A stretch of 64,000 nt of DNA from an uncultured Gemmatimonadaceae bacterium. Lineage in GTDB: Bacteria; Gemmatimonadota; Gemmatimonadetes; Gemmatimonadales; GWC2-71-9. Where the stretch lies: assembly GCA_964449145.1 (NCBI GenBank), contig CAYUYF010000016.1, positions 3,104-67,103 of the forward strand, in the 5' to 3' direction. Shown in pieces: positions 11,021 to 55,445 of the stretch (positions within the stretch are counted from its first letter, which is position 1; each line of letters opens with the position of its first letter). The notes under the pieces are model-generated. The model did not search any database, was not told where the DNA came from, and saw nothing but the letters and a program-made list of their open reading frames with translations. Made by a program: the position numbers and the translations under genes.

Positions 11021-11150
11021 ATTCCGAGGCTCTTGGCGGCGAGCGCATTCGTTCCTAGCTTTGACACCGGTTTCTCCTCCTGTTGACCTCGCGTTACCAC
11101 ATTATAGTTCTGGTGTTACACACTCCTCGCCTCGGCATCAGGGACGGGTC

Positions 11151-28200: not shown

Positions 28201-28563
28201 CGCCTGGAACCATGGGTGCTGGTCGGAGGTGTGGTTGATCACCAGCTCAATCAGGACCTGCATGCCCCGCTCGTGGGCGGCGGCGAGGAACTCCTGGAAG
28301 TCCTCCAGGGTGCCATAGCTGGGGTGCACGCTGGTATAGTCGGCGATGTCATACCCGTCGTCCCTGAGGGGCGAGGGGAAGAACGGCAGGATCCAGAGGC
28401 AGGTGACGCCCAGCTCCTCCAGGTAGTCGAGCTTCTCGATCAGGCCACGGAAGTCGCCGACGCCGTCCCCGTTGGCATCGTGGAAGCAGCGCACATGGAC
28501 TTCGTAAATGATCGCATCCCGGTACCAGAGCGGATCTGACGAGCTGCCCGGCCGTTTAATCAC
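25258..28563 (-). CDS. treS: Trehalose synthase (maltose alpha-D-glucosyltransferase) fused to maltokinase Pep2/Mak
   Basis: [36 protein letters not shown]; C-terminal [26 protein letters not shown]. Confidence 0.95.
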
Positions 28564-31475
28564 GACACCTCCACTGGAAGAGAAACGCCTGTCCGCGGCA
28601 CCGCCTGGCTGGTCGCCAGGAGCCCCCAGGGCAGGTCCGCGAGCACCTCCGGGATGGAAAGCCGGTGGGCTTCGGTCCGCACGGTGGCGCCGGTAAGTAG
28701 GTTGTGCCAGGCCGCCCCGGCGAGTTCCGGCGGCAGCTGAATGGTGGTCCCGGCCCAGGCCGGTCCCAGCGGGACTTGTTCGTTGTGATCCCAGCCCACC
28801 ATCTGGGCAGGGAGCCGCGGCACCAGGACCAGCACCGCCGAACTCCCGCGACTGCGCGCCAGGGCCACCAGGTGGCTGCCGGCAGGGCCGGTGGCCGACA
28901 GGGGACGATAGTCTCCCTCGAGGAACAGCTCCCGCTCCCGCCGCCGGAGCCGCAGGGCGGCCGCGGTCAGGAACAGCTTGATGTTGCCGCTGCGCCAGTC
29001 ACCGAGCACACCTGCCAGGCCGGCGGCCGGCTCCCCCCGCTCCACGCGATCCAGCATCGGTGCCAGTCGCTCCAGTTCCGCGCGGCGGGCCGCGAAATCC
29101 ACCGGCCGCCGGTTGTCCGGATCCACCAGGCTGAGGTCCCAGAGTTCGGTCCCCTGGTAGACGTCCGGTACCCCCGGCGCGGTCAGCTTCAAGAGCAGCT
29201 GTGAGCCCGAGTTGAGCATGCCGAGCCACGCCAGACGGTGAGCCACCGGCACGAACGACCGGAGAAACGCGGTGGAGCTGCGGCCGACCAGGACGGCCGC
29301 GACGAAATCCTCCACGGCCCGTTCGTACCGCACGACCGGATTGAGCCAGCTGGTATGCAGCTTGGCCTCCCGCATGGCCTTTCTCATGTATCCCTGCATC
29401 CGGTCCACCAGCGCCGGCCCCGACCGACCATTGCCGTCGGGCGGCCAGATCCCCGCCAGCGCCTGGTAGAACCGGTACTCGTCCACCGGCGCGGGGGCGG
29501 GTACTCCTGCGACGTCGGCGCGGGCGTCCCGGGTGACCCGGTGCCACCGGGTCACCAGCGCCTGCCACTGCCGGGGGATCTCCGAAATCACCGCCAGCCG
29601 GGACCGGGTATCCTCGCCCCACTTGGTGTCGTGCGTGGCGGTGGCGAGCATCGCCAGCGGCGCGTGCTGCTGGCGCTCCAGGTTGGCCGAGTGGAACTCC
29701 GCGACCGGATCCGCGCAGACGGTGGGCTCGCCCCCCACCTCGTTGAGTCCGGGGAGCGGGGCCCAGCGGTAGAAGGCGGTGTCCTCCACGCCCTTGGCCT
29801 GCACCGGGGCGGTGTACTGCTGGAACTTCATTGCGAAGCGGACCCGGCGGTCATGTTCCGCCGGGTCGGCAGCGGCGGGGAGGGACGGCAGCAGCATCCC
29901 GCGGATGAACCCGAAGATCGTGGGCTCCAGGGCCGGGTTGCGGCGCAGTGCCTCGGCGATCACCTGATCCACCATGGCCGCGTCCGCGGGCGTCGACCCG
30001 TCGGGCCGGACGTAGGTGCGATAGACCGGAAAGCATGCCACCACCTCCCCCAGCGCCTCCTGCAGGCTGTCGAGGGTGAAGTCCCGGTAGCGGCGGTCAC
30101 TCTCGGAGATCCGGTTGAGCGCCGCGGCGAGCACGTTGAGCTCCGCCGCCATGGAGGTGGCGATGATGGCCTTCTTGCTGGTGTACACCACCTCCGCGAA
30201 TGGCCGGTCCTCGCCGATGAACCGGGCGCAGTAGCGGCTGAGCGCGGCCACTCCGGCGGGATCGACAAACACCGCGTTGACCCGATTCAGGAACTCGTAT
30301 CCCGTGGTGCCATGCACCGGCCATTCCGGGGGGAGCCGCTCGCCGGGTGAGAGGATCTTCTCGACCAGGGTCCAGGCGGGACCGCCCTCGGCCAGCCGCT
30401 CGGCCAGTTGCCGCAGGTAGTGACCCGGCTCGAACAACCCATCCACGTGGTCCAGCCGCACGCCGGTCACCGCACCCTCGGCCACCAGCTGCGCCAGCAG
30501 GCTGTGGGTGGCCTCGAAGACCGCGGGCTCTTCCTGCCGGATTCCCGCCAGCTCGTTCACGTCGAAGAAGCGCCGGTAGTTGATCTCGTGCATCGCGGTG
30601 CGCCAGGACGCCAGTCGGTAGGGCTGGGCCTCAAGCAGCCGGTGCAGCAGGTCCATGGAGGCCGGCTGGCCGGCGGTGCCGTTGAAGGCCGCGACGTTTC
30701 GCTCCACATGGACCCGCACCAGCGGAGACCGGGCGAGGAGAGCCTCCAGCCGACCCAGCGCCACTTCCTTCTCCCGCCGCCGGGCATCCACCAGCGCCAG
30801 CTCGGTGGTGGTGTAGACCGGCAGGTGCTCCAGGTGAAAGAGGATGCTCTGGAACTCGGTGAGGTCGGGATCAGCAGGGGTCAGCGCCCGCACGAGTTCC
30901 GCCAGATTGTGCTCCAGCACCATCCGCAACTGGCGCGGATTGAGCGGGAGCTCATGATCGAAGTAGTGCAACACCATTCCTGTCGGTGCCAGCACCAGCC
31001 TGAGCTGGCCGGCTTCCAGGGTGACGCCGTACTGGTCTCCGAGGATGGGCAGCAGCAGGCGGCCCTTGAGCTCCGGCTTGACGGGGTCCCAGTCGATGTC
31101 GAAATAGGCCGCATACGGGGAGGACGGGCCGTTCTCCAGCACGCTCCGCCACCAGGAATTGGCGGTCGGATCCGCCGCCATGTGGTTGGGGACGAAATCC
31201 ACCACGATCCCCATGCCGTGTGCCTTGGCCGTCTGTGCCAGCTCCAGAAATCCCGCGGCGCCGCCCAGGTCCTCATTCAGGCGGCTGTGATCGCAGACGT
31301 CGTAGCCGTGTGGGCTCTGCGGCCGGGCCGCGAGCACCGGCGAACAGTAGCACTCGGTGACGCCAAGCTCCGCCAGGTAGGGCAGCAGCCGGGTCGCCTC
31401 ACGAAATCCACATGCAGCGCCGAGCTGGAGCCGGTAGCTGGTCAGCGGCAGGCGAGCCGGGGCGGGGGTCGGCAC
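28560..31475 (-). CDS. treY: Malto-oligosyltrehalose synthase
   Basis: SYRLQ, STHGYD-like [47 protein letters not shown]; start placed at GTG 31475. Confidence 0.94.
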
Positions 31476-31477
31476 CG

Positions 31478-33355
31478 TCAGACGCCTCCGGTGCGGGTAC
31501 CCAGCAGGACCGCACCTGGCTCGGTGAACTCCACGGCGCAGCGGTCCGTGGCCACGGTGATCGGCGCCGCACCAGCCGCAGCCGCATCCGCTCCCGTGGA
31601 GAGAAGCAGATGCCACCGCTGACCGGGGCCGAGCCTGCTCATCGGGTGTCCCTCCAGCTCCACCTGCCCGGCCCCCGACAGGCAGACGATGGCCAGGATC
31701 GTGCTGGCGCCGCCGGTCTCCCGGCGCACAAGGAGGATGTCGTCCCCGAGGTCGGCGATCTCACAGTCGCCCTCCACCAGCGCCGCCTCGGTGCGCCGCA
31801 GCCGGAGCAGGTGACGGTAGAGCAGGAGGGTGCTGCGGTGCGGTTCCCGCTCCCGTTCCAGCCAGTCGAGGCGGCTCGCCACAAAGGTGGCCTCGGCCTG
31901 GGGATCGGGGATGCGCTCCCGGGCGGCGGGATCGCGGAAGGCGGCGAAGCGGGCGAATTCGGATCGCCGCCCGTTGCGCACCGCCTCACCCAGTTCCGGG
32001 TTGTGATCCGTGAAGTACAGGAATGGGCTGCTGGCGGCCCACTCCTGACCCATGAAGAGGAGCGGCGTCTGTGGCAGCACCAGGAGCAGGGCCGAGGCCG
32101 CCCGATAGGCGGCCGGAGCGATGAAATGGTGCAGCCGGTCCCCCAGCGCCCGGTTGCCGACCTGGTCATGGTTCTGGAGGAAGAACACGAATCTCGTTGC
32201 CGCCAGCCCGGCGGGATCGGTCCCCCTCGGCGCGCCAAAATACTCGGCGTACTGACCCATGTAGAACCAGCCGCGGAGCGCGGTCGCCGCGATGTCGGCG
32301 GCGGAGCCGGAGAAATCGCCGAAGTAGCCATCGGCGTCGCCGGCCAATTTGCGGCGCATCTGGTGGTGGAAGTCGTCCGACCAGGCCGCGTCGAGGCCGG
32401 CGCCGCCCTCCGCTTCCGGCTTGACCAGGTAGGCCAGGTTACGCACCTCCTCCGCGATCACCAGCGCCACCCGCCCCTCGGCACGGGCGGCCTGATGCAC
32501 CGCCTCGGCCAGCGCGGTGAGGATGTGCCTCGGACTCTCGTCGTGGATCGCGTGGGTGGCGTCGAGCCGGAGGCCGTCAAGGTGATACTCGGTGATCCAG
32601 GCGACCGCATTCGCGATGACATACTCGCGTACCGGCGCACTGCCCGGTCCATCAAAGTTGATGGCCGCTCCCCAGGGGGTGCGATGGGCGGCGGAATGGT
32701 ACTGACCGGAGAAGGTACCCTGATAGGCGCCATCGGGGCCGAGGTGGTTGTAGACCACGTCGAGATGTACCGCCAGTCCCAGGCGGTGCGCCTCGTTGAC
32801 CAGGGCGCGGAGGTCGTCGGGCGGCCCATAGCACCGGGCGGGCGCAAACGGCGCGACCCCGTCGTAGCCCCAGTTCCGGTCGCCTGGAAAATCCGCAACA
32901 GGCATCAGCTCGATGGCGGTGACGCCGAGGTCCACGAGGTCGGGCAGGCGCGCGGCGGCCGCCCGAAAGGTGCCTTCGGGAGTGAAGGTGCCCACGTGCA
33001 GCTCGTACAGGACCAGCCGCTCGAGGGGAACCCCCGTCCAGTCGGCGTCGGCCCACGGGTACGCCGCCGGATCCACGACTTCGGATGGGCCGTGCACCCC
33101 GGTGGGCTGGAAACGCGAGGCAGGATCCGGGAAGGGGCCGGCACCGTTGACCAGGAACCGGTACCTCGTGCCGGGACCGGCGGCGGGGTGGGTCAGCTCG
33201 AACCAGCCTTCCCGAGTTGGCGCCATCGGGGCCGGGGGGCCGGCGCCCGCTTCGATGACAAGTTCCACCCGCGTGGCCTCGGGCGCCCAGACCCGGAATC
33301 GGGTCCCTTCGGCGCCCAGCCACCTCGGCCCGGCGTCCGGGCCCCGGCGTGTCAC
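31478..33355 (-). CDS. treZ: Malto-oligosyltrehalose trehalohydrolase
   Basis: [52 protein letters not shown]; GTGA overlap with the glgB stop. Confidence 0.94.
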
Positions 33356-35264
33356 GCGGAGTCCTCCGGGCGCGGCCCGCGAAAGGCCACCACCGACAGC
33401 GGCGGCAGGGTGAGCGCGAGCGACCATGGGCGGCCGTGGGCGGCGGCGGGGGCCGCTTCCACCCCGCCGAAGTTGCCTACGCCGCTGCCGCCGTAGAGCG
33501 CGGCGTCGCTGTTGAGGATCTCGGTCCAGTAGCCGCCATCGGGGATGCCCACGCGATAGTCCCCGCGTACCACGGGCGTGAAGTTGCAGACGAACAGCAC
33601 CACCTGGCCGGGCTCCCGTCCGCGCCGAAGGAAACTCACCACGCTCCGCTGGTTATCGTTGCAGTCCACCCACTCGAACCCGCTGGGCTCGAAATCCACG
33701 GCGTGGAGGGCCGGCTCCGCGCGGTAGCAGGTGTTGAGGTCACGGACCCAGCGCTGCAGGCCGCGGTGGTCCGCCTCCTCCAGCAGGTGCCAGTCGAGGC
33801 TCGCCTCGTGGTTCCACTCCCGCCACTGGCCGAACTCGCCGCCCATGAACAGCAGCTTCTTCCCCGGGTGCCCGTACATGTAGCCGTACAGGGCGCGGAG
33901 ATTGGCGAAGCGCTGCCACCGGTCCCCCGGCATCCGGCCGATCATCGAGCCCTTGCCGTGGACCACTTCGTCATGGGAGAACGGCAGCACGAAATTCTCG
34001 CTGAAGGCGTACATCATCGAGAACGTGATGGCGTTATGGTGGTGGCTCCGGTGCACCGGCTCCCGCCCCATGTAGTCCAGCATGTCGTGCATCCAGCCCA
34101 TGTTCCACTTGAACCCGAAGCCCAGCCCGCCAAGGTAGGTGGGACGCGAGACCATCGGCCAGCTGGTGGACTCCTCGGCGATGACCGTGGTGCCGGGGTA
34201 ATCCAGATGCAGCTGCTCATTGAGGGTACGGAGGAAGTCCACCGCCTCGAGGTTCTCGCGGCCGCCGTACTTGTTCGGCACCCACTCCCCGGATTGCCGG
34301 GCGTAGTCGAGGTAGAGCATCGAGGCCACGGCATCCACGCGCAGCGCATCAATGTGGTAGCGGTCCAGCCAGAACATCGCGTTGCTGAGCAGGAACGCCC
34401 GGACCTCGTCACGGCCGTAGTTGAAGACAAACGTGTCCCAGTCGGGATGGTGCCCCTGGCGCGGGTCGGCGTGCTCGTAGAGGTGGGTGCCGTCGAAATA
34501 GGCCAGGCCGATCTCATCGCGGGGGAAGTGGGCCGGCACCCAGTCCAGAATGACCCCGATGCCCCGGCGGTGCAGGGTATCCACCAGGTACATCAGGTCC
34601 TCCGGCGTCCCGTAGCGGGAGGTGGGCGCAAAGTACCCGGTGACCTGGTAGCCCCACGAGCCGTAGAAGGGATGTTCGGCCAGGGGCAGGAGCTCCACGT
34701 GGGTAAAACCCTGGGCCTCGACGTAATCGGTCAGCGCGCCGGCCATTTCCCGGTAGCTCAGCCAGCGATGTTTCCCGTCCTCGTAGGTGCGGCGCCAGGA
34801 ACCGAGGTGCACTTCGTAGATGGACATCGGCGCGTCGTGGATCTTGGCGGCAGACCGGGCGGCCAGCCAGTCACCGTCCCCCCAGGCATAGGCCGGCGCC
34901 CGCGCCACGCGGGAGGCGGTCTTCGGCGGGAGCTCGGTGGCAAAGGCGAAGGGATCGGCCTTGTCGGCGGTGAAGTGGCCGTCGCGGGAGACTACCCGGT
35001 ACTTGTACCCGGTGCCGGGCGTGACTTTCGGAATGAAGCACTGCCACACCCCGCGGTCGGTGGGAGACATCGGATGCGCGTTGGGGTCCCAGCCGTTGAA
35101 GTCGCCGATGACCGAGACCCGGCCTGCGTTCGGCGCGACCACCGCGAAGCGCACGCCGGCGCCACCGGGGCCGTTGGCCTCGTGCGCGCCCAGAATCCGG
35201 TAGATCCGGCAGGCCGAGCGGTCGCCCAGCTGCGTGAACTCGTCGTGGGTCAGTGTCGCGGTGA

Positions 35265-35268
<4 letters not shown>
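33352..35268 (-). CDS. glgB: 1,4-alpha-glucan branching enzyme
   Basis: [45 protein letters not shown]; ATGA overlap with the glgX stop. Confidence 0.96.
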
Positions 35269-37409
<2,141 letters not shown>

Positions 37410-37552
37410 AACTGGAATGCTCTCACTCTCCGGCGCGATGCCGTGCGCCCAGTGGCTCGTCGTTCGGCTCCCGGCCGACCCGGTCCTGAGTTCGCCGACT
37501 GCCGGCGCAATCCTGCAAGTACTTGTGAATCCTAGTGATATCAATGTAACTT

Positions 37553-37582
37553 GGGCGACCTGTTGATATCAACATATCGCCC
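37553..37582. promoter_or_regulatory. 30-bp palindrome in the glgX / glycosyltransferase divergent intergenic region
   Basis: GGGCGA-cc-TGTTGATATCAACA-ta-TCGCCC; perfect 14-bp core at 37561-37574. Confidence 0.6.
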
Positions 37583-37632
37583 GTTGCCGCGAGCTGCCGC
37601 ACGTTTCCTCCTTGCTCACGCCGGAGTCGCTG

Positions 37633-38886
37633 ATGCCGGACAAATTCACGCTGTCACCGGAAGTCGAGGCCGACCTCGGCTCGATTGGCGGCGTGGAGCT
37701 CGCAGTGGCGGTGAGCGCACTGGAGCGTCCCGAGGAGGCCGGGAAGGCCATCGCCACGGTCCGCGCCGGCCTGGCGGAGCGATTTCCCGGCGTGAAGGCG
37801 GTGGTCCTGCATCTCCATGGCGGCACGCCGCACGCCGACGCGCCCCCGGCGCCGGGCGACATCCCGGTCCTGAATCTCCTGTGCCGGGACAGCGGCCCGG
37901 GCGGGACGCCGTGGCCCCGCGCCATCGCGCTGCGGCTGGCCTTCGAGTCCAGCCACCGGCTGGGCGCCAAGGCCGCGGCCGTCGTCGGTGCGGAGGTGGC
38001 GAGCCTGACCCCCGCGTGGATCGGACAGCTGCTCGAGCCGGTGGTGCGACAGGGTCACGACCTCGTCACGCCCTACTACCTTCGCCATCCGTACAGCGGT
38101 GCGGTCACCAGCGGGCTGATTTACCCGCTCATCCGCGCCCTGTACGGCAAGCAGCTGCGGTACCCGCTGGGCGCGGAATTCGCCTGTTCCGCCCGCCTGA
38201 TCGAACGTGAGCTGCGCGCGACCTCCCGGCGCAGCCAGCCCGGGCCCCAGTCGCGCGAACTGCAGCTGCTGGCAGAGGCGGTGGGAAACGGCTGGGGCAT
38301 CTGTCAGGCGGTGCTGGGTCCCCGCACCCTCGTGGCTGGCGAAGGCACGACCGGCCTTGCCGGCGTCCTGCAGGACGTCCTCTCCCAGGTGTTCGCGGAG
38401 ATGGAACGCTCCGCCGCCACCTGGCAGAAGCTGCGGGGGTCCGCCGCGGTGGATCTGGCGGGGGCGGTGGACGGGGCGACGATCGAGCCGGTGCCGCTCG
38501 AACACAAGCGGCTCGTGGACGGCTTCCGGCTGGGCCAGCAGAACCTCCAGGATGTCTGGGGACTGGTGCTTCCTCCCAGTACGCTGGTTGAACTGAAGAA
38601 GATGGCCCGGCTGGGGGAAGCGGACTTCCGTATGCCCGACCGGCTCTGGGCCCGGATCGCCTTCGATTTCTCGCTGGCCTGCCGGGTCCGGGTGATGAGC
38701 CGCGACCACCTCATGGGGGCGCTGGTGCCCTTGTATCTCGGCTGGCTGGGTTCGTTGCATACCGAGCTGGGCGATGCACCGCCCGCCCGGGTTGAAGCGC
38801 GGCTGGAGCAGCTGTGTCTGCAGTTCGAGGCGGAAAAGCCATACCTGATCTCGCGGTGGCGGTGGCCCGATCGTTTCATTCCCTGA
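37633..38886 (+). CDS. GpgS/glucosylglycerate synthase-like GT-A glycosyltransferase homolog with degenerate catalytic motifs
   Basis: PYYLRHPYSGAVTSGLIYPLIRALYG..RYPLGAEF and C-terminal FEAEKPYLISRW match the family; DxD position reads GAE; alternative TTG start at 37612. Confidence 0.75.
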   Translation: MPDKFTLSPEVEADLGSIGGVELAVAVSALERPEEAGKAIATVRAGLAERFPGVKAVVLHLHGGTPHADAPPAPGDIPVLNLLCRDSGPGGTPWPRAIALRLAFESSHRLGAKAAAVVGAEVASLTPAWIGQLLEPVVRQGHDLVTPYYLRHPYSGAVTSGLIYPLIRALYGKQLRYPLGAEFACSARLIERELRATSRRSQPGPQSRELQLLAEAVGNGWGICQAVLGPRTLVAGEGTTGLAGVLQDVLSQVFAEMERSAATWQKLRGSAAVDLAGAVDGATIEPVPLEHKRLVDGFRLGQQNLQDVWGLVLPPSTLVELKKMARLGEADFRMPDRLWARIAFDFSLACRVRVMSRDHLMGALVPLYLGWLGSLHTELGDAPPARVEARLEQLCLQFEAEKPYLISRWRWPDRFIP

Positions 38887-38915
38887 CCGGACCGCGCGCC
38901 GGAGGAGGAGGAGTC

Positions 38916-39617
38916 ATGTGGACCCAGATTGACGACGCTCTGCGGGAGTCCCTGGGCCGGGTGCTGACCAGCCTGGCCAGCCTGCTGCCCGGGCTGGTGG
39001 CACTGCTCCTGTCGGTGCTGCTGGCGGTGCTGCTGGGCGCGCTTGCCCGGTGGGTCCTGGTCGGGCTGCTCCGCGCCTTCCGGTTCGACCAGCGGCTGGA
39101 ACGCTGGGGGGTGTCGGCGCTGGCGGAGTGGTCGCCGGAGCGCAGTCCCACTCTGCTGGTGGGCCGGCTGGCGCACTGGATGCTGGTGCTGCTCGGCGCG
39201 ATCATCGGCCTGGCCGCGCTGGACCCGACGTTGATGTCCACGATGCTGGGACGCCTGGGGACCTACCTGCCCAACGTCTTTGTTGCGGTGCTGCTGATGA
39301 TCATGGGCTCGATCCTGGCCCGGTTTCTCGCCCGTGGGGTCCTCATCAGTGCGGTGAACATGCAGCTGCATTCGGCCCGGCTCATGAGCCTGGGGGTCAA
39401 GTGGCTGGTGCTGCTGCTGACGGTGGCCATGGCCCTCGATCATCTGAGTATTGGCGGCACCATCTTGCAGCTGGCTTTCGGCACCCTGTTCGGCGGCATC
39501 GTGCTGGCGCTGGCCCTGGCGGTGGGGCTAGGATCCAAGGAAATCGTCAGCAAGTCGTGGGAACGTCAGGCGGATCGCCAGGCGGACCGGACCGAGCCGC
39601 CACTCGAGCACCTGTAA
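38916..39617 (+). CDS. MscS-related 'conserved TM helix' repeat membrane protein (CmpX-like), no cytoplasmic cage domain
   Basis: Two TM-helix-type repeats (SLLPGLVALLL; TYLPNVFVAVLL), C-terminal LALAVGLGSKE; GGAGGAG RBS. Confidence 0.75.
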   Translation: MWTQIDDALRESLGRVLTSLASLLPGLVALLLSVLLAVLLGALARWVLVGLLRAFRFDQRLERWGVSALAEWSPERSPTLLVGRLAHWMLVLLGAIIGLAALDPTLMSTMLGRLGTYLPNVFVAVLLMIMGSILARFLARGVLISAVNMQLHSARLMSLGVKWLVLLLTVAMALDHLSIGGTILQLAFGTLFGGIVLALALAVGLGSKEIVSKSWERQADRQADRTEPPLEHL

Positions 39618-39632
39618 GCGGGAGTCATCGTC

Positions 39633-41627
39633 ATGCACGCGAGCGACGGGCGGCGACGGGTCGTCATCGAGAAGGTCAAGCCAGAGATCGACGACGCGCG
39701 GTTTCCCATCAAGCGGGTCGTGGGAGAAGCCGTGGTCGTCACGGCGGACGTCTTCGGCGATGGACACGATGCGGTGGCCTGCGTGCTGCGCTACCAGGGC
39801 CCGGGGATGAGCGAGTGGCGCGAGCTCCCCATGGAGCCGCTGGGCAACGACCGGTGGAGGGCCAGCTTCCGGGTCGCCGAGCTGGGCCTCTACCACTACA
39901 CCGTGGAGGGCTGGGCCGACCGGTTTCTCACCTGGCGGCGTGACCTTGCCCGCCGACTGGAGGCGCCCGATCAGGATCTCGAGCCGGAGCTGGAGATCGG
40001 GGCCCGGTTGCTCGAGGCCACCGCCCGGCGGGCGGATCGCACCGACGCCGCCCAGCTCACGGCATGGGTCGCCGACCTGCGCGCACCCGGCGCCCCCGCC
40101 GACCGCGCGGCCATCGCCCTCGACCCGGAGCTGGAGGCCGTGGCCGCCCGCTGGCCCGACCGGAGCCTGTCCACGCGGTACCCGCGTGAGCCCGGCGTCC
40201 GCGTGGAACGGCCCCGCGCCCGGTACAGCACCTGGTACGAACTGTTCCCGCGATCCACCAGCGCCACGCCGGGCCGGCACGGGACCTTCGCGGACGTCGA
40301 GAAGCGGCTGCCTGACATCGCCGACATGGGCTTCGACGTGCTCTACCTCCCCCCGATCCACCCGATCGGACGGAGCTTTCGCAAGGGGCCCAACAACAGT
40401 CTGGTCGCCGGGCCAGAGGACGTGGGAAGTCCGTGGGCCATCGGAGCGCGCGAAGGCGGGCACACCGAGATTCTCCCCGCGCTAGGCTCCGCGGAGGACT
40501 TCCAGCGACTCGCCCGGGCCGCCAGCCAGCGGGGCATCGAGCTGGCCATGGATATCGCGTTCCAGTGCTCACCCGACCACCCCTGGGTCACCGCCCATCC
40601 CGAGTGGTTCCGCCACCGGCCGGATGGGAGCATCCAGTACGCCGAAAACCCGCCCAAGAAGTACCAGGACATCTTTCCGCTGGACTTCGAGACGGAGGAC
40701 TGGAAGGGCCTGTGGGAGGCGCTCAAGCAGGTGGTGCTGTTCTGGGCCGAGCGGGGCGTGCGGATCTTCCGGGTGGACAACCCGCACACCAAGGCCTTCG
40801 GCTTCTGGGAATGGATGATCCGCGAGGTCCAGGCGGCCTACCCCGACACCATCTTTCTGGCCGAGGCCTTTACCCGCCCCAAGGTGATGTATCGCCTGGC
40901 CAAGCTGGGCTTCTCGCAATCGTACACCTACTTCTCGTGGCGCAACACCCGGCAGGAGCTGGTCGAGTACTTCACCGAGCTGACCCGGACGGAGGTGCGT
41001 GAGTTCTTCCGCCCCAACCTGTGGCCCAACACTCCGGATATCCTGACCGAGTACCTGCAGATTGGCGGCCGGCCGGCCTTCCAGCTGCGGGCGATCCTCG
41101 CGGCGACGCTGGGGGCAAGCTATGGGATCTACGGTCCCGCCTTCGAGCTGCTCGAACACCGGCCGCGCTCGCCCGGGAGCGAGGAATATCTCGACTCGGA
41201 GAAATTCCAGATCCGGCACTGGCAGCTGGACGCGCCGCACAGCCTGCGCCCCCTGCTCACCCGCCTCAACCGGGCCCGGCGGGAGAACCCCGCACTGCAG
41301 CGTGACGCCGGACTGCTGTTCCACCCGGTGGATAACCCGCTGCTCGTGTGTTACAGCAAGACCAGCGAGGACGGCCTGCACGCCGCGCTGGTGGTGGTGA
41401 ACCTGGACCTGCAGCACCGGCAGGCGGGATGGGTCCGGCTCGACCTGGACGCTCTGGGCCTGGAAGAGGGCCTGCCGTTTCAGGTGGAGGACGCGCTGAG
41501 CGGCAGCCGCTACCTGTGGCAGGGCTCCGCCAACTATGTGGAGCTCGATCCGGCGAGCATGCCGGCCCATCTGTTCCGGATCCGGCGGAAGGTGCGGAGC
41601 GAGCGGGACTTCGACTACTACCTCTGA
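39633..41627 (+). CDS. glgE: Alpha-1,4-glucan:maltose-1-phosphate maltosyltransferase
   Basis: VVIEKVKPEID, WYELFPRS, YLPPIHPIG, GSPWAIG, QCSPDHPW, YAENPPKKYQDI, FRVDNPHTK, AEAFT. Confidence 0.96.
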   Translation: MHASDGRRRVVIEKVKPEIDDARFPIKRVVGEAVVVTADVFGDGHDAVACVLRYQGPGMSEWRELPMEPLGNDRWRASFRVAELGLYHYTVEGWADRFLTWRRDLARRLEAPDQDLEPELEIGARLLEATARRADRTDAAQLTAWVADLRAPGAPADRAAIALDPELEAVAARWPDRSLSTRYPREPGVRVERPRARYSTWYELFPRSTSATPGRHGTFADVEKRLPDIADMGFDVLYLPPIHPIGRSFRKGPNNSLVAGPEDVGSPWAIGAREGGHTEILPALGSAEDFQRLARAASQRGIELAMDIAFQCSPDHPWVTAHPEWFRHRPDGSIQYAENPPKKYQDIFPLDFETEDWKGLWEALKQVVLFWAERGVRIFRVDNPHTKAFGFWEWMIREVQAAYPDTIFLAEAFTRPKVMYRLAKLGFSQSYTYFSWRNTRQELVEYFTELTRTEVREFFRPNLWPNTPDILTEYLQIGGRPAFQLRAILAATLGASYGIYGPAFELLEHRPRSPGSEEYLDSEKFQIRHWQLDAPHSLRPLLTRLNRARRENPALQRDAGLLFHPVDNPLLVCYSKTSEDGLHAALVVVNLDLQHRQAGWVRLDLDALGLEEGLPFQVEDALSGSRYLWQGSANYVELDPASMPAHLFRIRRKVRSERDFDYYL

Positions 41628-51245: not shown

Positions 51246-51255
51246 GGTCGACATC

Positions 51256-51819
51256 ATGCACCGCCTGATCCCGGTATTCGCCATGGCCCTGGCTCTTGCC
51301 ACCCCGCTCCACGCCCAGGACGCCCCGGCGGCGTCCCTGGTCACGGGCCCCCAGGAGGGGGATCGAGCACCCGATTTTTCGCTGCCCTGGGCCTCCGCCG
51401 AGGGTGCGGGGGGCGCGCAGTGGTTCAGCCTCAGCGGCCACCGGGGCCGGGTGGTGGTGCTGGCGTTCTATCCAGCCGATTTCTCCTCCGGGTGCACGGC
51501 GGAGCTCCGGACGTTCTCCGAGCAGTACCCCGACCTGTTCGGCGACGGGGTGGTCGTAGCCGGAATCAGTACAGACTCGATTGAGACCCATGTCCGCTTT
51601 GCGCAGAGTCTCGGGCTCCCCTTCAGGCTGCTCAGCGACATGGACCAGCGCGTTTCGAGCGCGTGGGGCAGCGCCGGAGGCAACGGCAGAAACCGCCGGA
51701 CCGTGTTCGTGATAGACCCGCGTGGAAAAGTCTCGTATGTGGATCGCCGGTTTGGGGCCCTGGACCCGAAGGCCTACGAGCGCCTGAAGGAAGCGGTACA
51801 GGGAGCCAAGGGCCCGTAA
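51256..51819 (+). CDS. Exported peroxiredoxin (Bcp/PrxQ-like, single Cys)
   Basis: Signal peptide; GDRAPDFSLP, FYPADFSSGCTAE, GISTD, RTVFVID. Confidence 0.88.
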   Translation: MHRLIPVFAMALALATPLHAQDAPAASLVTGPQEGDRAPDFSLPWASAEGAGGAQWFSLSGHRGRVVVLAFYPADFSSGCTAELRTFSEQYPDLFGDGVVVAGISTDSIETHVRFAQSLGLPFRLLSDMDQRVSSAWGSAGGNGRNRRTVFVIDPRGKVSYVDRRFGALDPKAYERLKEAVQGAKGP

Positions 51820-51859
51820 GGGTCCTCTGAGGACGCCTACCCCAGCGGCTGGTGGGGCT

Positions 51860-52145
51860 GTATACACACTCTGTGCATAGAAAACCGCCTAGTGACGACA
51901 CTGTCGCTAGTCCTATTTTCAACATTGCTGGAGGCCTTTTTCCCATTGTGGGCTATGTGGTTAGCCAATTCAGTTAAAGTGGATAACCAGCTCCAGCTCT
52001 AGTTGCTTCACCAGCAACCGCTTCCCAGCAGCTTTCCACCGAAATCCCCATTCAACATGTGGAAAAAGTGCTCTCTCCACAGGCGTGGGATAGTCAGGCA
52101 CCGCTCCCGCGACAGCCTGCCCCATGCAAGTGTCAATGTGGAAAA
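51860..52145. other. AT-rich DnaA-box cluster, candidate replication origin (oriC)
   Basis: Perfect TGTGGAAAA at 52058-66 and 52137-45; one-mismatch boxes at 51860-68, 51872-80, 51916-24 and 51978-86; two-mismatch boxes at 51956-64, 52032-40 and 52073-81; about 48% GC by hand count over 51861-52080. Confidence 0.7.
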
Positions 52146-52203
52146 GCCACCCCCTTTCGTGACACGGTAACATATCAACGAGGCGGGCGACTGGATCAAG
52201 TCC

Positions 52204-53880
52204 GTGGCTGGCAGGCGGCCGCTGGCGGCAGCTGGGCCGCGGTTCGGCTCGCGGCAGGGTCGTGGGCTTTCTGGGGCCGGTCTCCGGGCTATTTTCCTCC
52301 TCGTGCTCCCCCCAGCTGCAGTCGGCCGAAGCGGGTTCCTCCGCGCCAAGCGGGTACTGTCACTTGCTGACGGCGTGGTGGGTGACGCCCTGTGGTGGCA
52401 GGACGGGGTGATCCGGCTGGTGGGCATGGCCCGGGAGATGGAGCGCCAGGTCCCCAGCCGGGTTCCCCGCATAGACCTGCCGCGAACCACCGTGACCCCG
52501 GGGATCGTGGATGGTCACACCCACTTCGGGCTGTGGGCGCTGGGCCAGACTCGGGTGAATCTGGTGGGCGCGGCCAGCCGCGCCGAGGCACTCAGCCGGA
52601 TCGCCGCCGGGACCCCGGAGCAGGGCTGGCTGCGCGGGCACGGCTGGGACGCCAATCGCTGGGAGGCTGTCCCGGATCGCTGGGCCCTCGATGGGGCCAG
52701 CGGCGCGTTTCCGGCGGCGTTCGACTCTGTGGACGTCCATGCCCTCTGGGCCAACTCGCTGGCCCTCCAGAAGGCCGGGATCACTCGCGAGAGCCCCGAC
52801 CTGCCCGGTGGCAGGATCGTCCGGGACGCCAGCGGTGAACCGACCGGGCTCCTGCTGGAACATGCCGCCGATCCGGTGCGGGCCATCCTGCCGGTCCCCG
52901 AGGCTGGCCGGATGCTGGCCGCCATCGAAAGCGCTCAGCGTGCGGCCCACCGGCTGGGGATCGTCGGCATTCACGACATCGAGGGGCCGGAGGTCCTGGG
53001 GGCCTTCCGACGGCTGGAGGAGGAGGAACGGCTCCGGCTCCGGGTGTTGTTTCATCCACCGGTGGCGCAGCTGGACGACCTGCTGGCGGCCGGGGTCCGG
53101 AGCTCGGCTGGCACTCCCTGGCTGACCCTGGGTGGGGTGAAGCTGTTTTTCGACGGAACCCTCGGCAGCCGGACCGCGTGGATGCTGGAGCCCTACGAGG
53201 ACGGCGCGGATCGCGGCATGCCGCTTACGGCTCCTGAGGTTGCCCGCGAGGCGGTCCAGCGCGCCGCCGCGGGGGGGATCGCGCTGGTCATCCACGCCAT
53301 CGGTGATGCGGCCGTGCGGCGGGCCCTCGACCTGCTGGCCGAGGCGCCTCGCGCGGCCTTGCCGCACCGGATCGAGCACCTGCAGTGTGTGCACCCCGGG
53401 GACCTGGGCCGGCTCGCGGATCTGGGGATCGTCGCTTCCGTGCAGCCGTCCCATCTTCCGGGAGATGCGGCGGTGGCAGAGGAGCGGTGGGGCGGACGGG
53501 CTCGGGGGGCGTATCCATTTCGCAGCTTGGAGGAGCGGGGCACCGTGCTGGCCTTCGGCAGCGACGCGCCGGTTACGCATCTCGATCCCAGGCTCGGTCT
53601 CGCCGCGGCGATGGACCGTCCGGCGTCTCTTGGTGGCGAGGGCGGCCCGTGGAATCCGGAGGAGCGGCTGAGTTTCGAGTCGGCGCTCAGGGGCTTTACC
53701 GTGGGGAATGCGGCGGCGGCTGGCCTGGGAGACCGGCGGGGACGGGTAGCGCCGGGGTTCGACGCCGACTTCGTCGCGTGGGAGATGGATGCCGCCGTCG
53801 AGCACGGCGTCGGCTCCGCCATGCGGGACGCCAGAGTCCGGATGACCGTCGTGGACGGCCAGATCGTCTGGATGCAGTAG
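52204..53880 (+). CDS. Amidohydrolase family 3 (YtcJ-like) metallo-hydrolase; start uncertain
   Basis: PGIVDGHTH, VDVHALWANS, GVKLFFDG, HAIGD, RIEH, AFGSDAP. Confidence 0.88.
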   Translation: MAGRRPLAAAGPRFGSRQGRGLSGAGLRAIFLLVLPPAAVGRSGFLRAKRVLSLADGVVGDALWWQDGVIRLVGMAREMERQVPSRVPRIDLPRTTVTPGIVDGHTHFGLWALGQTRVNLVGAASRAEALSRIAAGTPEQGWLRGHGWDANRWEAVPDRWALDGASGAFPAAFDSVDVHALWANSLALQKAGITRESPDLPGGRIVRDASGEPTGLLLEHAADPVRAILPVPEAGRMLAAIESAQRAAHRLGIVGIHDIEGPEVLGAFRRLEEEERLRLRVLFHPPVAQLDDLLAAGVRSSAGTPWLTLGGVKLFFDGTLGSRTAWMLEPYEDGADRGMPLTAPEVAREAVQRAAAGGIALVIHAIGDAAVRRALDLLAEAPRAALPHRIEHLQCVHPGDLGRLADLGIVASVQPSHLPGDAAVAEERWGGRARGAYPFRSLEERGTVLAFGSDAPVTHLDPRLGLAAAMDRPASLGGEGGPWNPEERLSFESALRGFTVGNAAAAGLGDRRGRVAPGFDADFVAWEMDAAVEHGVGSAMRDARVRMTVVDGQIVWMQ

Positions 53881-53981: not shown

Positions 53982-55445
53982 GTGCCACTCGCCTCCATCC
54001 GCCGCACCAAGATTGTCGCCACACTCGGTCCCGCCTGGAGTCGGCCGGATCAGATGCATCAGCTCTTCGATGACGGCGTCAATGTCGTGCGCGTCAACTC
54101 CTCGCACGGCACTCCGGAGGTCCGGGGCGAGTGGATCAAGGCGGTCCATACGGTGCGGGCGGAACGCCGGGATGCCATCGGCCTCCTGCTGGACCTGCAG
54201 GGGCCGCGCATCCGGGTCGGCATGCTGCCCACGCCCATCCGGCTGGTCCCCGGCTCGGAGGTGGTGTTCGCCCCGGAGCACCTGGCCACCGCCGGAGAAA
54301 TCCCCACGACCTACGACGATCTGGCGCTGGACGTCCGTCCCGAGGCCCGGATACTGCTCGATGACGGGCTGCTGGCCGTGCGGGTCAAGGAGGTTCGTGG
54401 CGACCGGGTGGCGGGCATCGTGGAATACGGCGGCGAACTGAAGTCGAACAAGGGGATGAATCTCCCGGGCATCGACGTCAGCGCCCCAGCCCTGACCGAC
54501 AAGGACCGCGAAGACGTGGTCCAGGCGGTGGAACTCGGGGTGGATTACATCGCGCTGTCGTTCGTGCGGAGGGCGGCCGATGTCGAACAGCTCCGGCGCC
54601 TGGTGCCCCGCCACATCAAGCTGGTCGCCAAGATCGAGAAGGACACCGCCTTGCGGGACCTGTGCGGGATTCTCGAGGTGTCCGACGCCATCATGGTGGC
54701 ACGGGGTGACCTCGGCGTGGAGCTGCCATTCGAGGAGGTGCCGCTGGTCCAGAAGCGCATCATCCGGGAGGCCAACCTCCACGGCAAGCCGGTGATCACG
54801 GCGACCCAGATGCTGGAATCCATGGTCCACGCGCCGGTGCCGACCCGCGCCGAGGCGTCGGATGTGGCCAATGCGATCCTCGACGGGACCGACGCCGTGA
54901 TGCTCTCGGCCGAGACGGCCGTGGGGGAGTACCCCCGTGAGGCGGTGCAGGCGATGGACCGCATTGCGCGAGAGATGGAGTCCCATCGCCAGGGCCGCAG
55001 TCCCGCCTTCGACGCGGCGGTGGGGCGCCGCACGCCGGACACCGAGACCGACAAGCATTCCCGTCCCGGCGGGGACACGCCCGCCCGGACGGAAGATGCC
55101 ATTGCGGTGGCGGTTTGCGCCGCGAGCGAACTGCTCCGCGTGCCCATCATTCTGTGTTTCACCAGCAGCGGCTTCACCGCCCGCAAGGTGGCCACCTATC
55201 GCCCCATCGTGCCCATCGTGGCGGCCACGCCGGAGCCGGAGACCTACCGGCAGCTGTCCCTGGTCTGGGGGGTGCTGCCGATCCAGACCCAGCACGCCGA
55301 CGATTACGACAACCTCCTGAGCCAGGCCCGGCAGCAGGTGCTGGAGCGTGGCTTCGCCCGGGCCGGCGAGCGGGTCGTGGTGACGGCCGGCGTGCCGTTC
55401 GACGTGCCCGGCACCACCAATCTGCTGAAGATCGAGGCGGTGTGA
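53982..55445 (+). CDS. pyk: Pyruvate kinase
   Basis: RRTKIVATLGPA, DLQGPRIR, AKIE, IMVARGDLGVE, ATQMLESM, PTRAEASDVANA; GAGGAG RBS before GTG 53982. Confidence 0.97.
   Translation: MPLASIRRTKIVATLGPAWSRPDQMHQLFDDGVNVVRVNSSHGTPEVRGEWIKAVHTVRAERRDAIGLLLDLQGPRIRVGMLPTPIRLVPGSEVVFAPEHLATAGEIPTTYDDLALDVRPEARILLDDGLLAVRVKEVRGDRVAGIVEYGGELKSNKGMNLPGIDVSAPALTDKDREDVVQAVELGVDYIALSFVRRAADVEQLRRLVPRHIKLVAKIEKDTALRDLCGILEVSDAIMVARGDLGVELPFEEVPLVQKRIIREANLHGKPVITATQMLESMVHAPVPTRAEASDVANAILDGTDAVMLSAETAVGEYPREAVQAMDRIAREMESHRQGRSPAFDAAVGRRTPDTETDKHSRPGGDTPARTEDAIAVAVCAASELLRVPIILCFTSSGFTARKVATYRPIVPIVAATPEPETYRQLSLVWGVLPIQTQHADDYDNLLSQARQQVLERGFARAGERVVVTAGVPFDVPGTTNLLKIEAV

What the first reader, a model, noticed from the sequence alone, without database searches (positions are those of the whole stretch)
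51820..52203. Candidate chromosomal origin (oriC) uncoupled from dnaA
Seen: a ~380-bp gene-free gap, about 48% GC over 51861-52080 against roughly 70% in the flanks, with about nine DnaA-box-like 9-mers. Two are perfect TGTGGAAAA (52058, 52137), four have one mismatch (51860, 51872, 51916, 51978) and three have two. The pair at 51860/51872 is inverted with a 3-nt gap. No dnaA, dnaN, gyrB, rpmH or gidA is present in 64 kb. Known: clustered TT(A/T)TNCACA boxes in an AT-rich intergenic region define oriC, and some lineages place oriC away from dnaA. Inference: oriC of this lineage lies between prx and an amidohydrolase, or this is a datA/DARS-like DnaA-titration locus. I could not find a convincing DnaA-trio run.
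Basis: partly seen in the sequence, partly recalled or inferred. Interest (0 to 1): 0.75.

Follow-up and report, generated by a model that had tools for sequence, protein, structure and literature searches.

The report
Conserved DnaA-box cluster, possible replication origin
A 300-base non-coding stretch packed with binding sites for the replication initiator DnaA sits in the same place in at least 81 Gemmatimonadales genomes; it may be their unmapped chromosome origin, but this could not be proven here.

Summary
The gap 51820-52203 is the lowest-GC spot in the 64 kb. It contains the window's only two perfect TTWTNCACA boxes and 7 boxes with at most one mismatch, against 0.5 expected (P<2e-4).

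The element (about 51855-52150) is non-coding. It matches no Rfam family, has no consensus RNA fold, and yielded no contigs in the one metatranscriptome that carries its neighbours. It lies in the same synteny (ispG-dsbD-tlpA-prx-[hypothetical]-ELEMENT-[amidohydrolase]-pyk) in 81 Gemmatimonadales species genomes. The layout of conserved blocks separated by variable sequence of fixed length is classic for oriC. The element always holds the least stable duplex within about 3 kb. It also carries a conserved non-DnaA palindrome, YGACACTGTCR. No dnaA, dnaN, gyrB or parAB gene and no parS site lies in the window.

Origin status is unproven. No chromosome-scale skew, coverage profile or dnaA locus of this lineage could be obtained. 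Local skew is uninformative. Genes on both sides share one strand, no DnaA-trio is visible, and a promoter (RNA 5' end at 52183) abuts the last box.

My estimates: oriC 0.4, non-origin DnaA-box cluster (titration or regulation of the pyk operon) 0.33, other regulator's site 0.17.

The parts
51855..52150 (.). Conserved non-coding element as a whole: AT-rich DNA with a DnaA-box array.
   Evidence: Alignments with orthologous gaps. Lowest GC in the window. Least stable duplex of the region.
51860..51880 (.). Inverted pair of one-mismatch boxes, GTATACACA (+) / CTATGCACA (-), 3-nt gap. In the larger clade the homologous site is the AT-rich block GATGTTCATAAT-N7-TCTG(C/A)ATAA, which is the least stable 30 bp and the candidate unwinding region.
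   Evidence: Conserved at offsets -37 and -25 in 13-14 of 14 close relatives. Duplex stability minimum at -44..-37 in 32 of 41 larger-clade genomes.
51889..51910 (.). Palindrome CTAGTGACGACACTGTCGCTAG with core YGACACTGTCR (51896-51906). It is not a DnaA box. It is probably the site of an unknown dimeric protein. In this clade it also resembles an intrinsic terminator for prx.
   Evidence: The core is present in all 7 loci retrieved through the protein alone. The arms beyond the core show no covariation. Terminator-like hit.
51916..51924 (+). Box TTTTCAACA (1 mismatch).
   Evidence: Conserved at offset +18/+19 in the close clade.
51937..51964 (.). Conserved block CTTTTTCCCATTGTGGGCTATGTGGTTAG: TTTTTCCCA (1 mismatch) and two TGTGG repeats (51947 and 51956; the latter is CTAACCACA, 2 mismatches).
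51978..51986 (-). Box TTATCCACT (1 mismatch; the closest in the element to the E. coli TTATCCACA consensus).
   Evidence: Conserved at offset +80/+81.
52032..52040 (+). Box CTTTCCACC (2 mismatches), in a block conserved as (A/T)TCCAC in the close clade.
52049..52066 (.). Head-to-head double box ATTCAACA|TGTGGAAAA. The right half is the perfect box at 52058. In the larger clade it is a near-perfect palindrome, TTTTC(C/A)ACATGTGGAAA. It lies 149 +/- 2 nt from the palindrome core.
   Evidence: Spacing classes 168-171 in 77 genomes. The search pattern allowed only 166-172.
52073..52092 (.). Block CTCTCCACAGGCGTGGGATA: inverted weak boxes (CTCTCCACA with 2 mismatches; CGTGGGATA). Specific to the close clade.
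52137..52145 (-). Second perfect box, TTTTCCACA, centred about 42 nt upstream of the RNA 5' end.
   Evidence: Conserved at offset +240/+241 in the close clade. It reads TTATCCACA in L006.
52168..52183 (+). Putative promoter -10-like TAACATATC (52168-52176) and RNA 5' end at 52183 for the amidohydrolase-pyk operon.
   Evidence: A metatranscriptome contig starts at 52183 directly after adapter sequence. The GGTMAC-WTWT motif is shared with L005 and L006. Assigning it as a promoter is inference.
51256..51819 (+). Upstream flank: peroxiredoxin (AhpC/TSA).
   Evidence: Pfam hit. RNA contig starts at 51253.
52204..53880 (+). Downstream flank: amidohydrolase (Amidohydro_3; gene caller starts it at 52375). 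It is followed by pyk (54003-55445), an MBL-fold gene, pgi and fba.

Best explanation
The element is a DNA-level, DnaA-binding nucleoprotein site. The single most likely specific role is the chromosomal replication origin (oriC), or its DnaA-assembly core, of this Gemmatimonadales lineage, located away from dnaA.

Proposed mechanism (inferred, not shown):
1. DnaA occupies the strong boxes: the two perfect TTTTCCACA at 52058 and 52137, and TTATCCACT at 51978.
2. ATP-DnaA then fills the weaker, precisely spaced boxes.
3. An unknown dimeric factor binds the palindrome YGACACTGTCR.
4. The complex opens the least stable AT-rich segment at the left end (51860-51885; GATGTTCATAAT...TCTGCATAA in most relatives) for helicase loading.
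5. The amidohydrolase-pyk promoter sits at the right edge, so DnaA occupancy probably also affects that operon.

Shown here: the boxes, their statistical excess, their conserved positions, the non-coding and unstructured nature of the element, the duplex stability minimum, and the synteny.

Inferred: DnaA binding. Unwinding and initiation are not tested.
For: - Box excess: 7 boxes with <=1 mismatch against 0.51 expected, and both perfect boxes of the 64 kb lie here.
- Breadth: 81 of 94 pattern hits in one-genome-per-species contigs are Gemmatimonadales, always between prx/hypothetical and amidohydrolase/pyk, one per genome except in one MAG.
- Enrichment in relatives: every copy has 3-8 boxes against 0.05-0.13 per equal length of flank.
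- Architecture: conserved blocks are separated by unconserved sequence of constant length, the pattern classically described for enterobacterial oriC (my own knowledge). Box offsets are identical in the window, L001, L005 and L006 although the flanking protein is only 63-68% identical.
- Unwinding candidate: the least stable 30-bp duplex within +/-1.5 kb lies inside the element in 47 of 47 genomes.
- Independence from the neighbour gene: the element persists where the amidohydrolase gene is missing (17 loci). The position I infer for the downstream promoter relative to the core also appears to differ between the two clades.
- Not RNA, not protein: no Rfam, tRNA or tmRNA hit. RNAalifold gives -0.7 kcal/mol and no covariation over 82 sequences. 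No RNA contigs in X9 while the flanks have depth 50-90. The small ORFs are broken in relatives.
- Uncoupling is plausible: dnaA loci of Bacteroidota, in the related FCB group, show no box cluster beside dnaA.
- Position: in the only chromosome-sized contig with coordinates (3,592,909 bp), the element lies at 50.25% of its length. That would fit a contig broken at the terminus, but it may be coincidence.
Against: - No chromosome-scale evidence: no GC-skew switch, no coverage peak, and no dnaA locus for comparison.
- GC and GC3 skew show no clear change at 52 kb. The phylum has weak compositional bias and only 56.6% leading-strand genes (PMC4613354), so this counts for little.
- Genes are on the + strand for about 14 kb to the left and at least 12 kb to the right, in the window and in relatives. 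There is no divergent gene orientation.
- GGGNAGGG, the E. coli FtsK-orienting motif (unverified in this phylum), favours the + strand 7:2 inside left-side minus-strand genes. That hints the fork crosses the locus rightwards. It is not significant.
- No DnaA-trio run and no repeated 13-mers.
- No parS site and no ori-linked genes in 64 kb.
- The larger clade has only about 4-5 good boxes, and the element abuts the start of the next gene.
- Cultured Gemmatimonas genomes were not hit by the strict pattern.
Confidence: 0.4

Rival explanations
1. The element is a DnaA-box cluster that is not the origin. It is either a DnaA-titrating or DnaA-recycling locus (like datA/DARS of E. coli or the DnaA-box clusters of B. 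subtilis), or a DnaA-controlled promoter region for the amidohydrolase-pyk-pgi-fba glycolytic operon. DnaA binds the array. The last box at about -42, or in most relatives the double box just downstream of a -10-like motif, sets transcription. The array as a whole buffers free DnaA.
For: - The box evidence is the same as for oriC.
- An RNA 5' end at 52183 lies 38 nt after the last perfect box, and the spacing from box to the -10-like motif is conserved in the window, L005 and L006.
- In the larger clade the double box sits between a conserved TAAGATATTCAC motif and the start codon.
- The element always precedes the pyk operon.
- Flanking genes share one strand and there is no skew change.
- No dnaA lies within 64 kb.
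- Pyruvate kinase is linked to replication control in B. subtilis (PMC9009071).
Against: - Conservation over about 300 bp with fixed spacers is more than known DnaA-regulated promoters need.
- The core (AT-rich block, palindrome, 149 nt, double box) keeps its geometry, while the promoter position I infer for the larger clade differs from the one seen in the window's clade.
- It is the least stable duplex of the region in every genome.
- It is single-copy.
- No IHF site was identified.
- The -10 assignment in the larger clade is only inference.
Confidence: 0.33
2. The element is the regulatory region of the glycolytic operon and is read mainly by other proteins, not DnaA. A dimeric regulator recognises TTTTCCACATGTGGAAA, another recognises GACACTGTC, and fixed spacing allows DNA looping. 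The likeness to DnaA boxes is incidental.
For: - Two motifs are palindromes, which is typical of dimeric regulators.
- In the larger clade only 4-5 sites fit the DnaA consensus.
- The element is always directly upstream of the operon.
- A box-like TGTGAAAAC and a CCAC-N8-GTGG palindrome also lie upstream of nrdJ. The palindrome fits the NrdR-box shape, which shows that such cores occur in other regulators' sites.
Against: - Perfect matches to the stringent DnaA consensus TT(A/T)TNCACA are expected to bind DnaA in any bacterium, because the DNA-binding domain is highly conserved (my own knowledge).
- In the window's clade 10-13 separate CCAC/GTGG-core sites occur in both orientations. Most are not palindromic, which fits a monomeric binder such as DnaA.
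- The left half of the double box is degenerate (TTCAACA) while the right half is perfect.
Confidence: 0.17
3. The element is made of RNA-level features: the 3' UTR and terminator of prx or the hypothetical gene, plus a long 5' leader or small RNA for the downstream operon.
For: - A terminator-like hairpin followed by a T-run lies at 51889-51920.
- In the window's clade the arms of the palindrome are longer, 7-16 bp.
- In the larger clade, short GC hairpins of variable sequence follow the double box (seen by eye in the sequence stack; not tested for covariation).
Against: - No Rfam hit up to E = 10.
- No consensus structure or covariation in 82 sequences.
- Positions beyond the invariant palindrome core pair no more often than shuffled controls.
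- No RNA contigs cover 51621-52182 in X9. This is weak evidence, because the 3' part of prx is also uncovered.
Confidence: 0.05

Closest known systems
Enterobacterial oriC (E. coli gidA-mioC origin)
   Same: It is a cluster of TT(A/T)TNCACA boxes in both orientations. It has blocks of conserved sequence separated by unconserved spacers of fixed length. It lies tens of kb from dnaA, and its flanking genes are transcribed in the same direction with a promoter at its edge. (The E. coli features are from my own knowledge.)
   Different: No repeated AT-rich 13-mers, no GATC clustering and no recognised IHF or Fis sites. Origin activity and a skew switch are not shown. An extra conserved palindrome, YGACACTGTCR, is present.
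Caulobacter crescentus Cori (hemE / RP001 origin)
   Same: The origin is not directly beside dnaA. It lies next to a metabolic gene whose strong promoter sits inside the origin, and it carries binding sites for a second regulator (CtrA) besides DnaA. (My own knowledge.)
   Different: No TTAA-N7-TTAA sites. The second motif here is a different palindrome whose binding protein is unknown. Function is untested.
B. subtilis DnaA-box clusters (DBCs) and E. coli datA / DARS1 / DARS2
   Same: These are intergenic clusters of DnaA boxes away from oriC, often at promoters. They titrate or recycle DnaA and tune initiation. (My own knowledge.)
   Different: There is no sequence homology to them. No IHF or Fis site was identified. 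The conservation here spans at least 81 species, with exact spacing and a duplex stability minimum. That is more origin-like than is known for those loci.
Cyanobacterial oriC boxes (TTTTCCACA type)
   Same: The perfect boxes here have exactly the TTTTCCACA variant reported for cyanobacterial origins. (My own knowledge; not checked in a paper here.)
   Different: A different phylum and a different genomic context. Cyanobacterial origins usually lie next to dnaN.
matS (MatP site, GTGACRNYGTCAC) of the enterobacterial terminus region
   Same: The palindrome G(C/T)GACACTGTC(G/A)C differs from matS only at positions 2 and 12. A few relatives have one exact half-site. This is a resemblance recalled from memory.
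   Different: MatP is restricted to some Gammaproteobacteria. Only one site is seen here, whereas the terminus region carries about 23. No MatP homologue was looked for. I treat this as a lead only.

Membership tests
Bacterial chromosomal origin (oriC) | Cluster of DnaA boxes well above chance | tested here: met
   7 boxes with <=1 mismatch against 0.51 expected, and 2 perfect against 0.018. 3-8 boxes per element in 82 genomes against 0.05-0.13 in flanks.
Bacterial chromosomal origin (oriC) | AT-rich DNA unwinding element next to the boxes | tested here: inconclusive
   The least stable 30 bp of +/-1.5 kb lies inside the element in 47 of 47 genomes. It is only about 30-40 bp long, contains boxes itself, and shows no repeated 13-mers.
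Bacterial chromosomal origin (oriC) | DnaA-trio run ([T/A]A[G/A] triplets) beside a box pair | tested here: not met
   Inspection of both strands of the AT-rich blocks in both clades found no run of 3 or more triplets (sequences). This feature is common but not universal.
Bacterial chromosomal origin (oriC) | Lies at the GC-skew switch / replication start of the chromosome | tested here: inconclusive
   Only 64 kb and 21-kb loci were available. Skew and GC3 skew show no clear change. The phylum has weak bias. Whole-contig data were not retrievable.
Bacterial chromosomal origin (oriC) | One copy per chromosome at a conserved position | tested here: met
   One hit per genome in 79 of 80 MAGs, always between prx/hypothetical and amidohydrolase/pyk. 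One MAG has two copies on two contigs, each with the whole syntenic block, so it is probably a mixed bin.
Bacterial chromosomal origin (oriC) | Binds DnaA, unwinds and supports autonomous replication | not testable with these tools
   Needs EMSA or footprinting, P1/KMnO4 unwinding assays, a minichromosome test and marker-frequency analysis.
Bacterial chromosomal origin (oriC) | Adjacent to dnaA or dnaN (common, not defining) | tested here: not met
   No Bac_DnaA, DNA_pol3_beta or gyrB domains in the window's ORFs or in the 21-kb loci of relatives.
Non-origin DnaA-box clusters (datA, DARS, B. subtilis DBCs) | DnaA-box cluster outside the origin | tested here: inconclusive
   The cluster is shown. 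Whether it lies outside the origin depends on where the origin is, which is unknown.
Non-origin DnaA-box clusters (datA, DARS, B. subtilis DBCs) | IHF or Fis site essential for datA / DARS2 function | tested here: not met
   No WATCAANNNNTTR match was seen by eye in the conserved blocks. This is a weak test, because the IHF consensus is loose.
Non-origin DnaA-box clusters (datA, DARS, B. subtilis DBCs) | Alters the DnaA-ATP/ADP balance or free DnaA level | not testable with these tools
   Needs deletion or extra-copy experiments with measurement of initiation timing.
Structured non-coding RNA | Match to a known family, or a conserved secondary structure with covariation | tested here: not met
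   Rfam at E <= 10 gives nothing in the gap, and nothing at gathering thresholds across the whole window. ARAGORN finds nothing. RNAalifold on 82 sequences gives -0.7 kcal/mol with 3 invariant pairs and no covariation.
Protein-coding gene | Open reading frame conserved in relatives | tested here: not met
   The three ORFs of 41-67 aa carry internal stops in 7-9 of 13 close relatives.
parS / ParB site | TGTTNCACGTGNAACA palindrome | tested here: not met
   Only 3-mismatch hits occur in the window, and none lies in the element.
Intrinsic terminator (palindrome 51889-51910 only) | GC-rich stem with compensatory changes, followed by a U-tract | tested here: inconclusive
   The consensus scan calls it. 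Across 82 sequences the arms beyond the invariant core pair no better than shuffled controls. The U-tract is poor in the larger clade.

The most novel reading that the evidence does not exclude
This is the chromosomal origin of a large Gemmatimonadales clade. It is uncoupled from dnaA and carries a conserved non-DnaA palindrome (YGACACTGTCR) for an unknown origin-binding factor. The promoter of the pyruvate-kinase/glycolysis operon is built into its edge, so that DnaA occupancy of the origin and expression of central carbon metabolism are physically coupled.
Probability: 0.3. Interest if true: 0.65.

Novelty: new member of a known kind. Interest (0 to 1): 0.5.

Why it matters
No replication origin has been described for Gemmatimonadota. 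My literature searches found nothing.

- If this is oriC, it fixes the origin for a widespread soil and wastewater lineage. That would allow growth-rate estimates from metagenome coverage, correct rotation of assemblies, and construction of replicating vectors. It would also point to a new origin-binding factor that recognises the palindrome.
- If it is not the origin, it is a deeply conserved DnaA-box array in front of pyruvate kinase. That would make the proposed link between the initiator and central carbon metabolism directly testable outside Bacillus and E. coli.

Either way, the element is a precise, portable sequence marker present once per genome.

Tried and rejected
**Rejected explanations**
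- Known RNA families, tRNA and tmRNA: no hits.
- Consensus RNA fold over 82 sequences: none.
- Hairpin covariation around the palindrome: none beyond the core.
- Small ORFs in the gap: not conserved.
- parS: absent.
- Sigma-70 consensus promoter scan: no hit.
- dif and IHF sites: no convincing match by eye.

**Tests that proved uninformative**
- GC skew, cumulative skew and per-gene GC3 skew in the window: dominated by gene and codon effects, with no usable replication signal.
- GGGNAGGG polarity: + strand bias on both flanks, but confounded by gene orientation. The 7:2 count inside minus-strand genes is not significant.

**Attempts to reach chromosome scale or a dnaA locus that failed**
- The pyruvate kinase protein search returned no long contigs.
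- PLSDB holds no Gemmatimonadota replicon.
- A metagenome scan with a DnaA alignment gave 80 dnaA loci. The high-GC ones belong to Limnocylindrales, Trueperaceae, Phosphoribacter, Binataceae, Nitrospiraceae, Roseiflexaceae and others. None could be shown to be Gemmatimonadota. Tetranucleotide similarity could not separate phyla.
- Literature searches for a Gemmatimonadota origin, and for the TTTTCCACA box, found nothing useful.

**Caveat on the 82-sequence set**
The set was collected with the pattern GACACTGTCR-N146-152-CATGTGGAMA. The invariance of those two motifs, and the +/-3 limit on spacing, are therefore partly built in. The seven loci found through the flanking protein alone are the unbiased sample, and all seven carry the element.

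Full report
**1. The observation**

The gap between the peroxiredoxin gene (51256-51819) and the amidohydrolase ORF (from 52204) is real.
- GC is 47.7% over 51861-52080 and 54.2% over the whole gap, against 66.6% and 71.4% in the flanks (68.7% for the window). This is the lowest-GC 300-bp window of the 64 kb.
- A scan with TTWTNCACA finds perfect boxes at 52058(-) and 52137(-), the only two in the window.
- One-mismatch boxes lie at 51860(+), 51872(-), 51916(+), 51937(+) and 51978(-). Two-mismatch boxes lie at 51956, 52032 and 52073.
- In 5000 dinucleotide-preserving shuffles of the gap itself, 0.51 boxes with at most one mismatch are expected. Seven are seen, and no shuffle reached seven.

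The enrichment is therefore not a by-product of the AT-richer composition.

**2. What it is not**

- Not a known RNA. Rfam gives nothing in the gap even at E = 10 and nothing at gathering thresholds across the window. ARAGORN finds no tRNA or tmRNA.
- Not protein-coding. The three short ORFs in the gap are interrupted by stop codons in 7-9 of 13 close relatives.
- Not a structured RNA. RNAalifold on 82 related sequences predicts essentially no structure: -0.7 kcal/mol and three invariant pairs.
- Probably not transcribed at a high level. One metatranscriptome (X9) carries this organism. Its contigs cover prx (51253-51620, depth 92) and the amidohydrolase (from 52183, depth 85), but nothing between 51621 and 52182.
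- Both RNA contigs start directly after adapter sequence. This marks RNA 5' ends at 51253 (3 nt before the prx ATG) and at 52183.
- Contig depth is a poor measure, and the 3' part of prx is also uncovered. This counts against an abundant RNA but does not prove the region is silent.

**3. Relatives**

- The window comes from a 69.9-kb metagenomic contig.
- Homologues of the amidohydrolase led to seven loci in Gemmatimonadetes/Gemmatimonadales MAGs.
- All seven share the order ispG - dsbD-like - tlpA-like - prx - [a 245-283 aa protein with no Pfam hit, absent in the window] - gap - amidohydrolase - pyk - MBL - pgi - ... - fba. All seven carry the element in the gap.
- In the window, L001, L005 and L006 the boxes sit at identical offsets (0, +12, +56, +77, +118, +198, +277), although the flanking protein is only 63-68% identical.
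- Between the boxes the sequence is unrelated but the length is kept.
- A pattern built from two shared motifs (GACACTGTCR-N146-152-CATGTGGAMA) hit 94 stretches in the one-genome-per-species collection.
- 81 of these hits are Gemmatimonadales or Gemmatimonadota MAGs with the same synteny. The other 13 are chance hits inside genes of unrelated taxa.
- In 17 loci the amidohydrolase gene is missing and the element directly precedes pyk.
- The spacing between the two motifs is 168-171 nt in 77 genomes. The pattern allowed only 166-172, so the invariance of the two motifs and the narrow spacing are partly built into this set.

**4. Anatomy**

Two clades are visible.
- The window's clade has 14 sequences. 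It averages 7 boxes with at most one mismatch, at fixed offsets. Counting weaker CCAC/GTGG-core sites by eye in the stacked sequences gives about 10-13 in all.
- The larger clade has 68 sequences and a compact version of about 230 bp. It consists of a strongly conserved AT-rich block (CATGTCGAAGATGTTCATAAT-N7-TCTG(C/A)ATAA(A/T)TA, containing two tandem one-mismatch boxes), the palindrome GCGACACTGTCGC, about 100 bp of variable sequence, and then ...TTTTACACGCAAATAAGATATTCACTTCCnGGGCTTTTCCACATGTGGAAAC directly before the next gene.
- Every element has 3-8 good boxes, against 0.05-0.13 per equal length in its own flanks.
- The least stable 30-bp duplex within +/-1.5 kb lies inside the element in 47 of 47 genomes. 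In 32 of 41 genomes of the larger clade it falls in the AT-rich left block.
- The palindrome core YGACACTGTCR is not a DnaA box. Positions outside the core pair no more often than shuffled controls. It therefore looks like a protein recognition site rather than a hairpin.
- In the window's clade the palindrome has longer arms and a T-run, and the terminator scan picks it up.

**5. Surroundings**

- Pfam annotation of essentially all long ORFs shows kinases and phosphatases, an amidase, class II ribonucleotide reductase (10989-13682), a GlgE-pathway glycogen/trehalose cluster (25-41.6 kb), DUF5916, hydrolases, ispG, thiol-redox genes, and the pyk-pgi-fba group.
- There is no dnaA, dnaN, gyrB, gidA or parAB gene and no parS site.
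- Genes are on the + strand from 37.5 kb to the end of the window on both sides of the element, and the same holds in relatives.

**6. Is it the origin?**

I could not obtain the decisive data.
- Loci are limited to about 20 kb. GC skew and GC3 skew at this scale are dominated by gene effects.
- The only sequenced member analysed in the literature, G. aurantiaca, has weak compositional bias and only 56.6% of genes on the leading strand (PMC4613354). Neither local skew nor gene orientation is therefore strong evidence.
- A KOPS-like motif (GGGNAGGG) favours the + strand 7:2 inside left-side minus-strand genes. If it is polar in this phylum, that hints at a fork passing rightwards through the locus. 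It is not significant and the motif is unverified here.
- All attempts to obtain a Gemmatimonadales dnaA locus failed.
- Two side results bear on the prior. Bacteroidota dnaA loci, from the related FCB group, have no box cluster next to dnaA, so an origin uncoupled from dnaA is plausible here. In the only chromosome-sized contig with coordinates (3,592,909 bp), the element lies at 50.25% of its length. That would fit a contig broken at the terminus, but with one case it may be chance.

**7. Weighing**

DnaA binding itself is very likely, at about 0.75-0.8. Perfect matches to the stringent consensus should bind DnaA in any bacterium, and nearly every conserved block contains such a core. This rests on my own knowledge of DnaA specificity.
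- For an origin: the block-and-fixed-spacer architecture, one copy per genome, persistence when the neighbouring gene is lost, a core geometry that appears independent of where the downstream promoter sits, and the stability minimum.
- Against an origin: no strand switch, no DnaA-trio, few boxes in the larger clade, and a promoter at or inside the element.
- My estimates: oriC 0.40. A non-origin DnaA-box cluster (titration, recycling or DnaA control of the pyk operon) 0.33. A regulatory region read mainly by other proteins 0.17. RNA-level features 0.05.

The link to pyruvate kinase is worth noting, because PykA is tied to replication control in B. subtilis (PMC9009071).

**8. Novelty**

Origins and DnaA-box clusters are known kinds. 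This element appears undescribed: searches for Gemmatimonas or Gemmatimonadetes together with oriC, DoriC, DnaA box or DnaA-trio found nothing relevant. I rate it a new member of a known kind, of moderate interest. It would be upgraded if whole-genome skew or coverage places the origin here.

Noticed in passing
window 10940-11150 (upstream of nrdJ, 10989-13682); L001 740-930: This is the second-lowest-GC spot of the window. It carries a conserved TTTGTGATGTGAAAA (box-like GTTTTCACA on the minus strand) and a palindrome CCACGAAAATTCGTGG whose CAC-N8-GTG shape resembles an NrdR box. Both are shared with L001-L003. They may be NrdR and/or DnaA control sites for the class II ribonucleotide reductase.
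   Followed up: partly
window 51253 and 52183: Metatranscriptome contigs start at these positions directly after adapter sequence. This suggests RNA 5' ends 3 nt before the prx ATG (a nearly leaderless mRNA) and 21 nt before the GTG at 52204. The second would favour the long form of the amidohydrolase over the gene caller's start at 52375.
   Followed up: partly
L001 8590-9435; L004 8876-9703; L006 8758-9609; L008 8936-9670 (absent in the window): A protein of 245-283 aa with no Pfam match lies between prx and the element in most relatives, and is fused to prx in L007. It is missing in the window's genome, where the element follows prx directly.
   Followed up: partly
L012, L014, L017, L022, L030, L037, L044, L051, L057, L058, L062, L067, L072, L082, L084, L098, L100: In 17 of 81 genomes the amidohydrolase gene is absent and the element sits directly upstream of pyruvate kinase.
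   Followed up: yes
L004 (ERZ25039554 contig_17289, 3,592,909 bp; locus at 1,795,825-1,817,396): The element lies at 50.25% of the only chromosome-sized contig for which coordinates were returned. It could be chance. It could also mean that the contig ends lie opposite the element, at the terminus if this is the origin, or at the origin if the contig was rotated to start there.
   Followed up: no
L030 and L082 (CAVOSV010000002.1 and CAVOSV010000003.1, MAG MFD00392.bin.1.1): One MAG carries two copies of the whole ispG...pyk block with the element, on contigs of 2.33 Mb and 0.67 Mb. This is probably a bin holding two related genomes.
   Followed up: no
L162, L142, L180 (metagenome dnaA loci; the L180 protein cluster includes a member named Candidatus Limnocylindrales) and L107-L115, L119 (Bacteroidota dnaA loci): These dnaA genes have no DnaA-box cluster within 1 kb on either side, unlike the Trueperaceae, Phosphoribacter and other loci in the same set. 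This suggests origins uncoupled from dnaA in these lineages too.
   Followed up: partly
window 25258-41627: A large glycogen/trehalose gene cluster (TreS-maltokinase, isoamylase-like, branching-enzyme-like, GlgE). Most of it lies on the minus strand. It is the only long minus-strand block left of the element.
   Followed up: no
window 1-64000 and flanks of 83 loci: GGGNAGGG and especially GGGCAGGG are biased to the + strand: 10:5 and 4:0 in the window, and 72:20 and 63:16 in the left and right flanks of relatives. The bias holds inside minus-strand genes of the window. This may be a polar, KOPS-like motif in this lineage.
   Followed up: partly
window 49053 -> 54155: One contig in both a DNA run (X2) and the RNA run (X9) joins these two positions with 12 unmatched letters between them, but only 21 letters fit on the shorter side. 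It is most likely a short shared word with another strain rather than a real 5.1-kb deletion.
   Followed up: no
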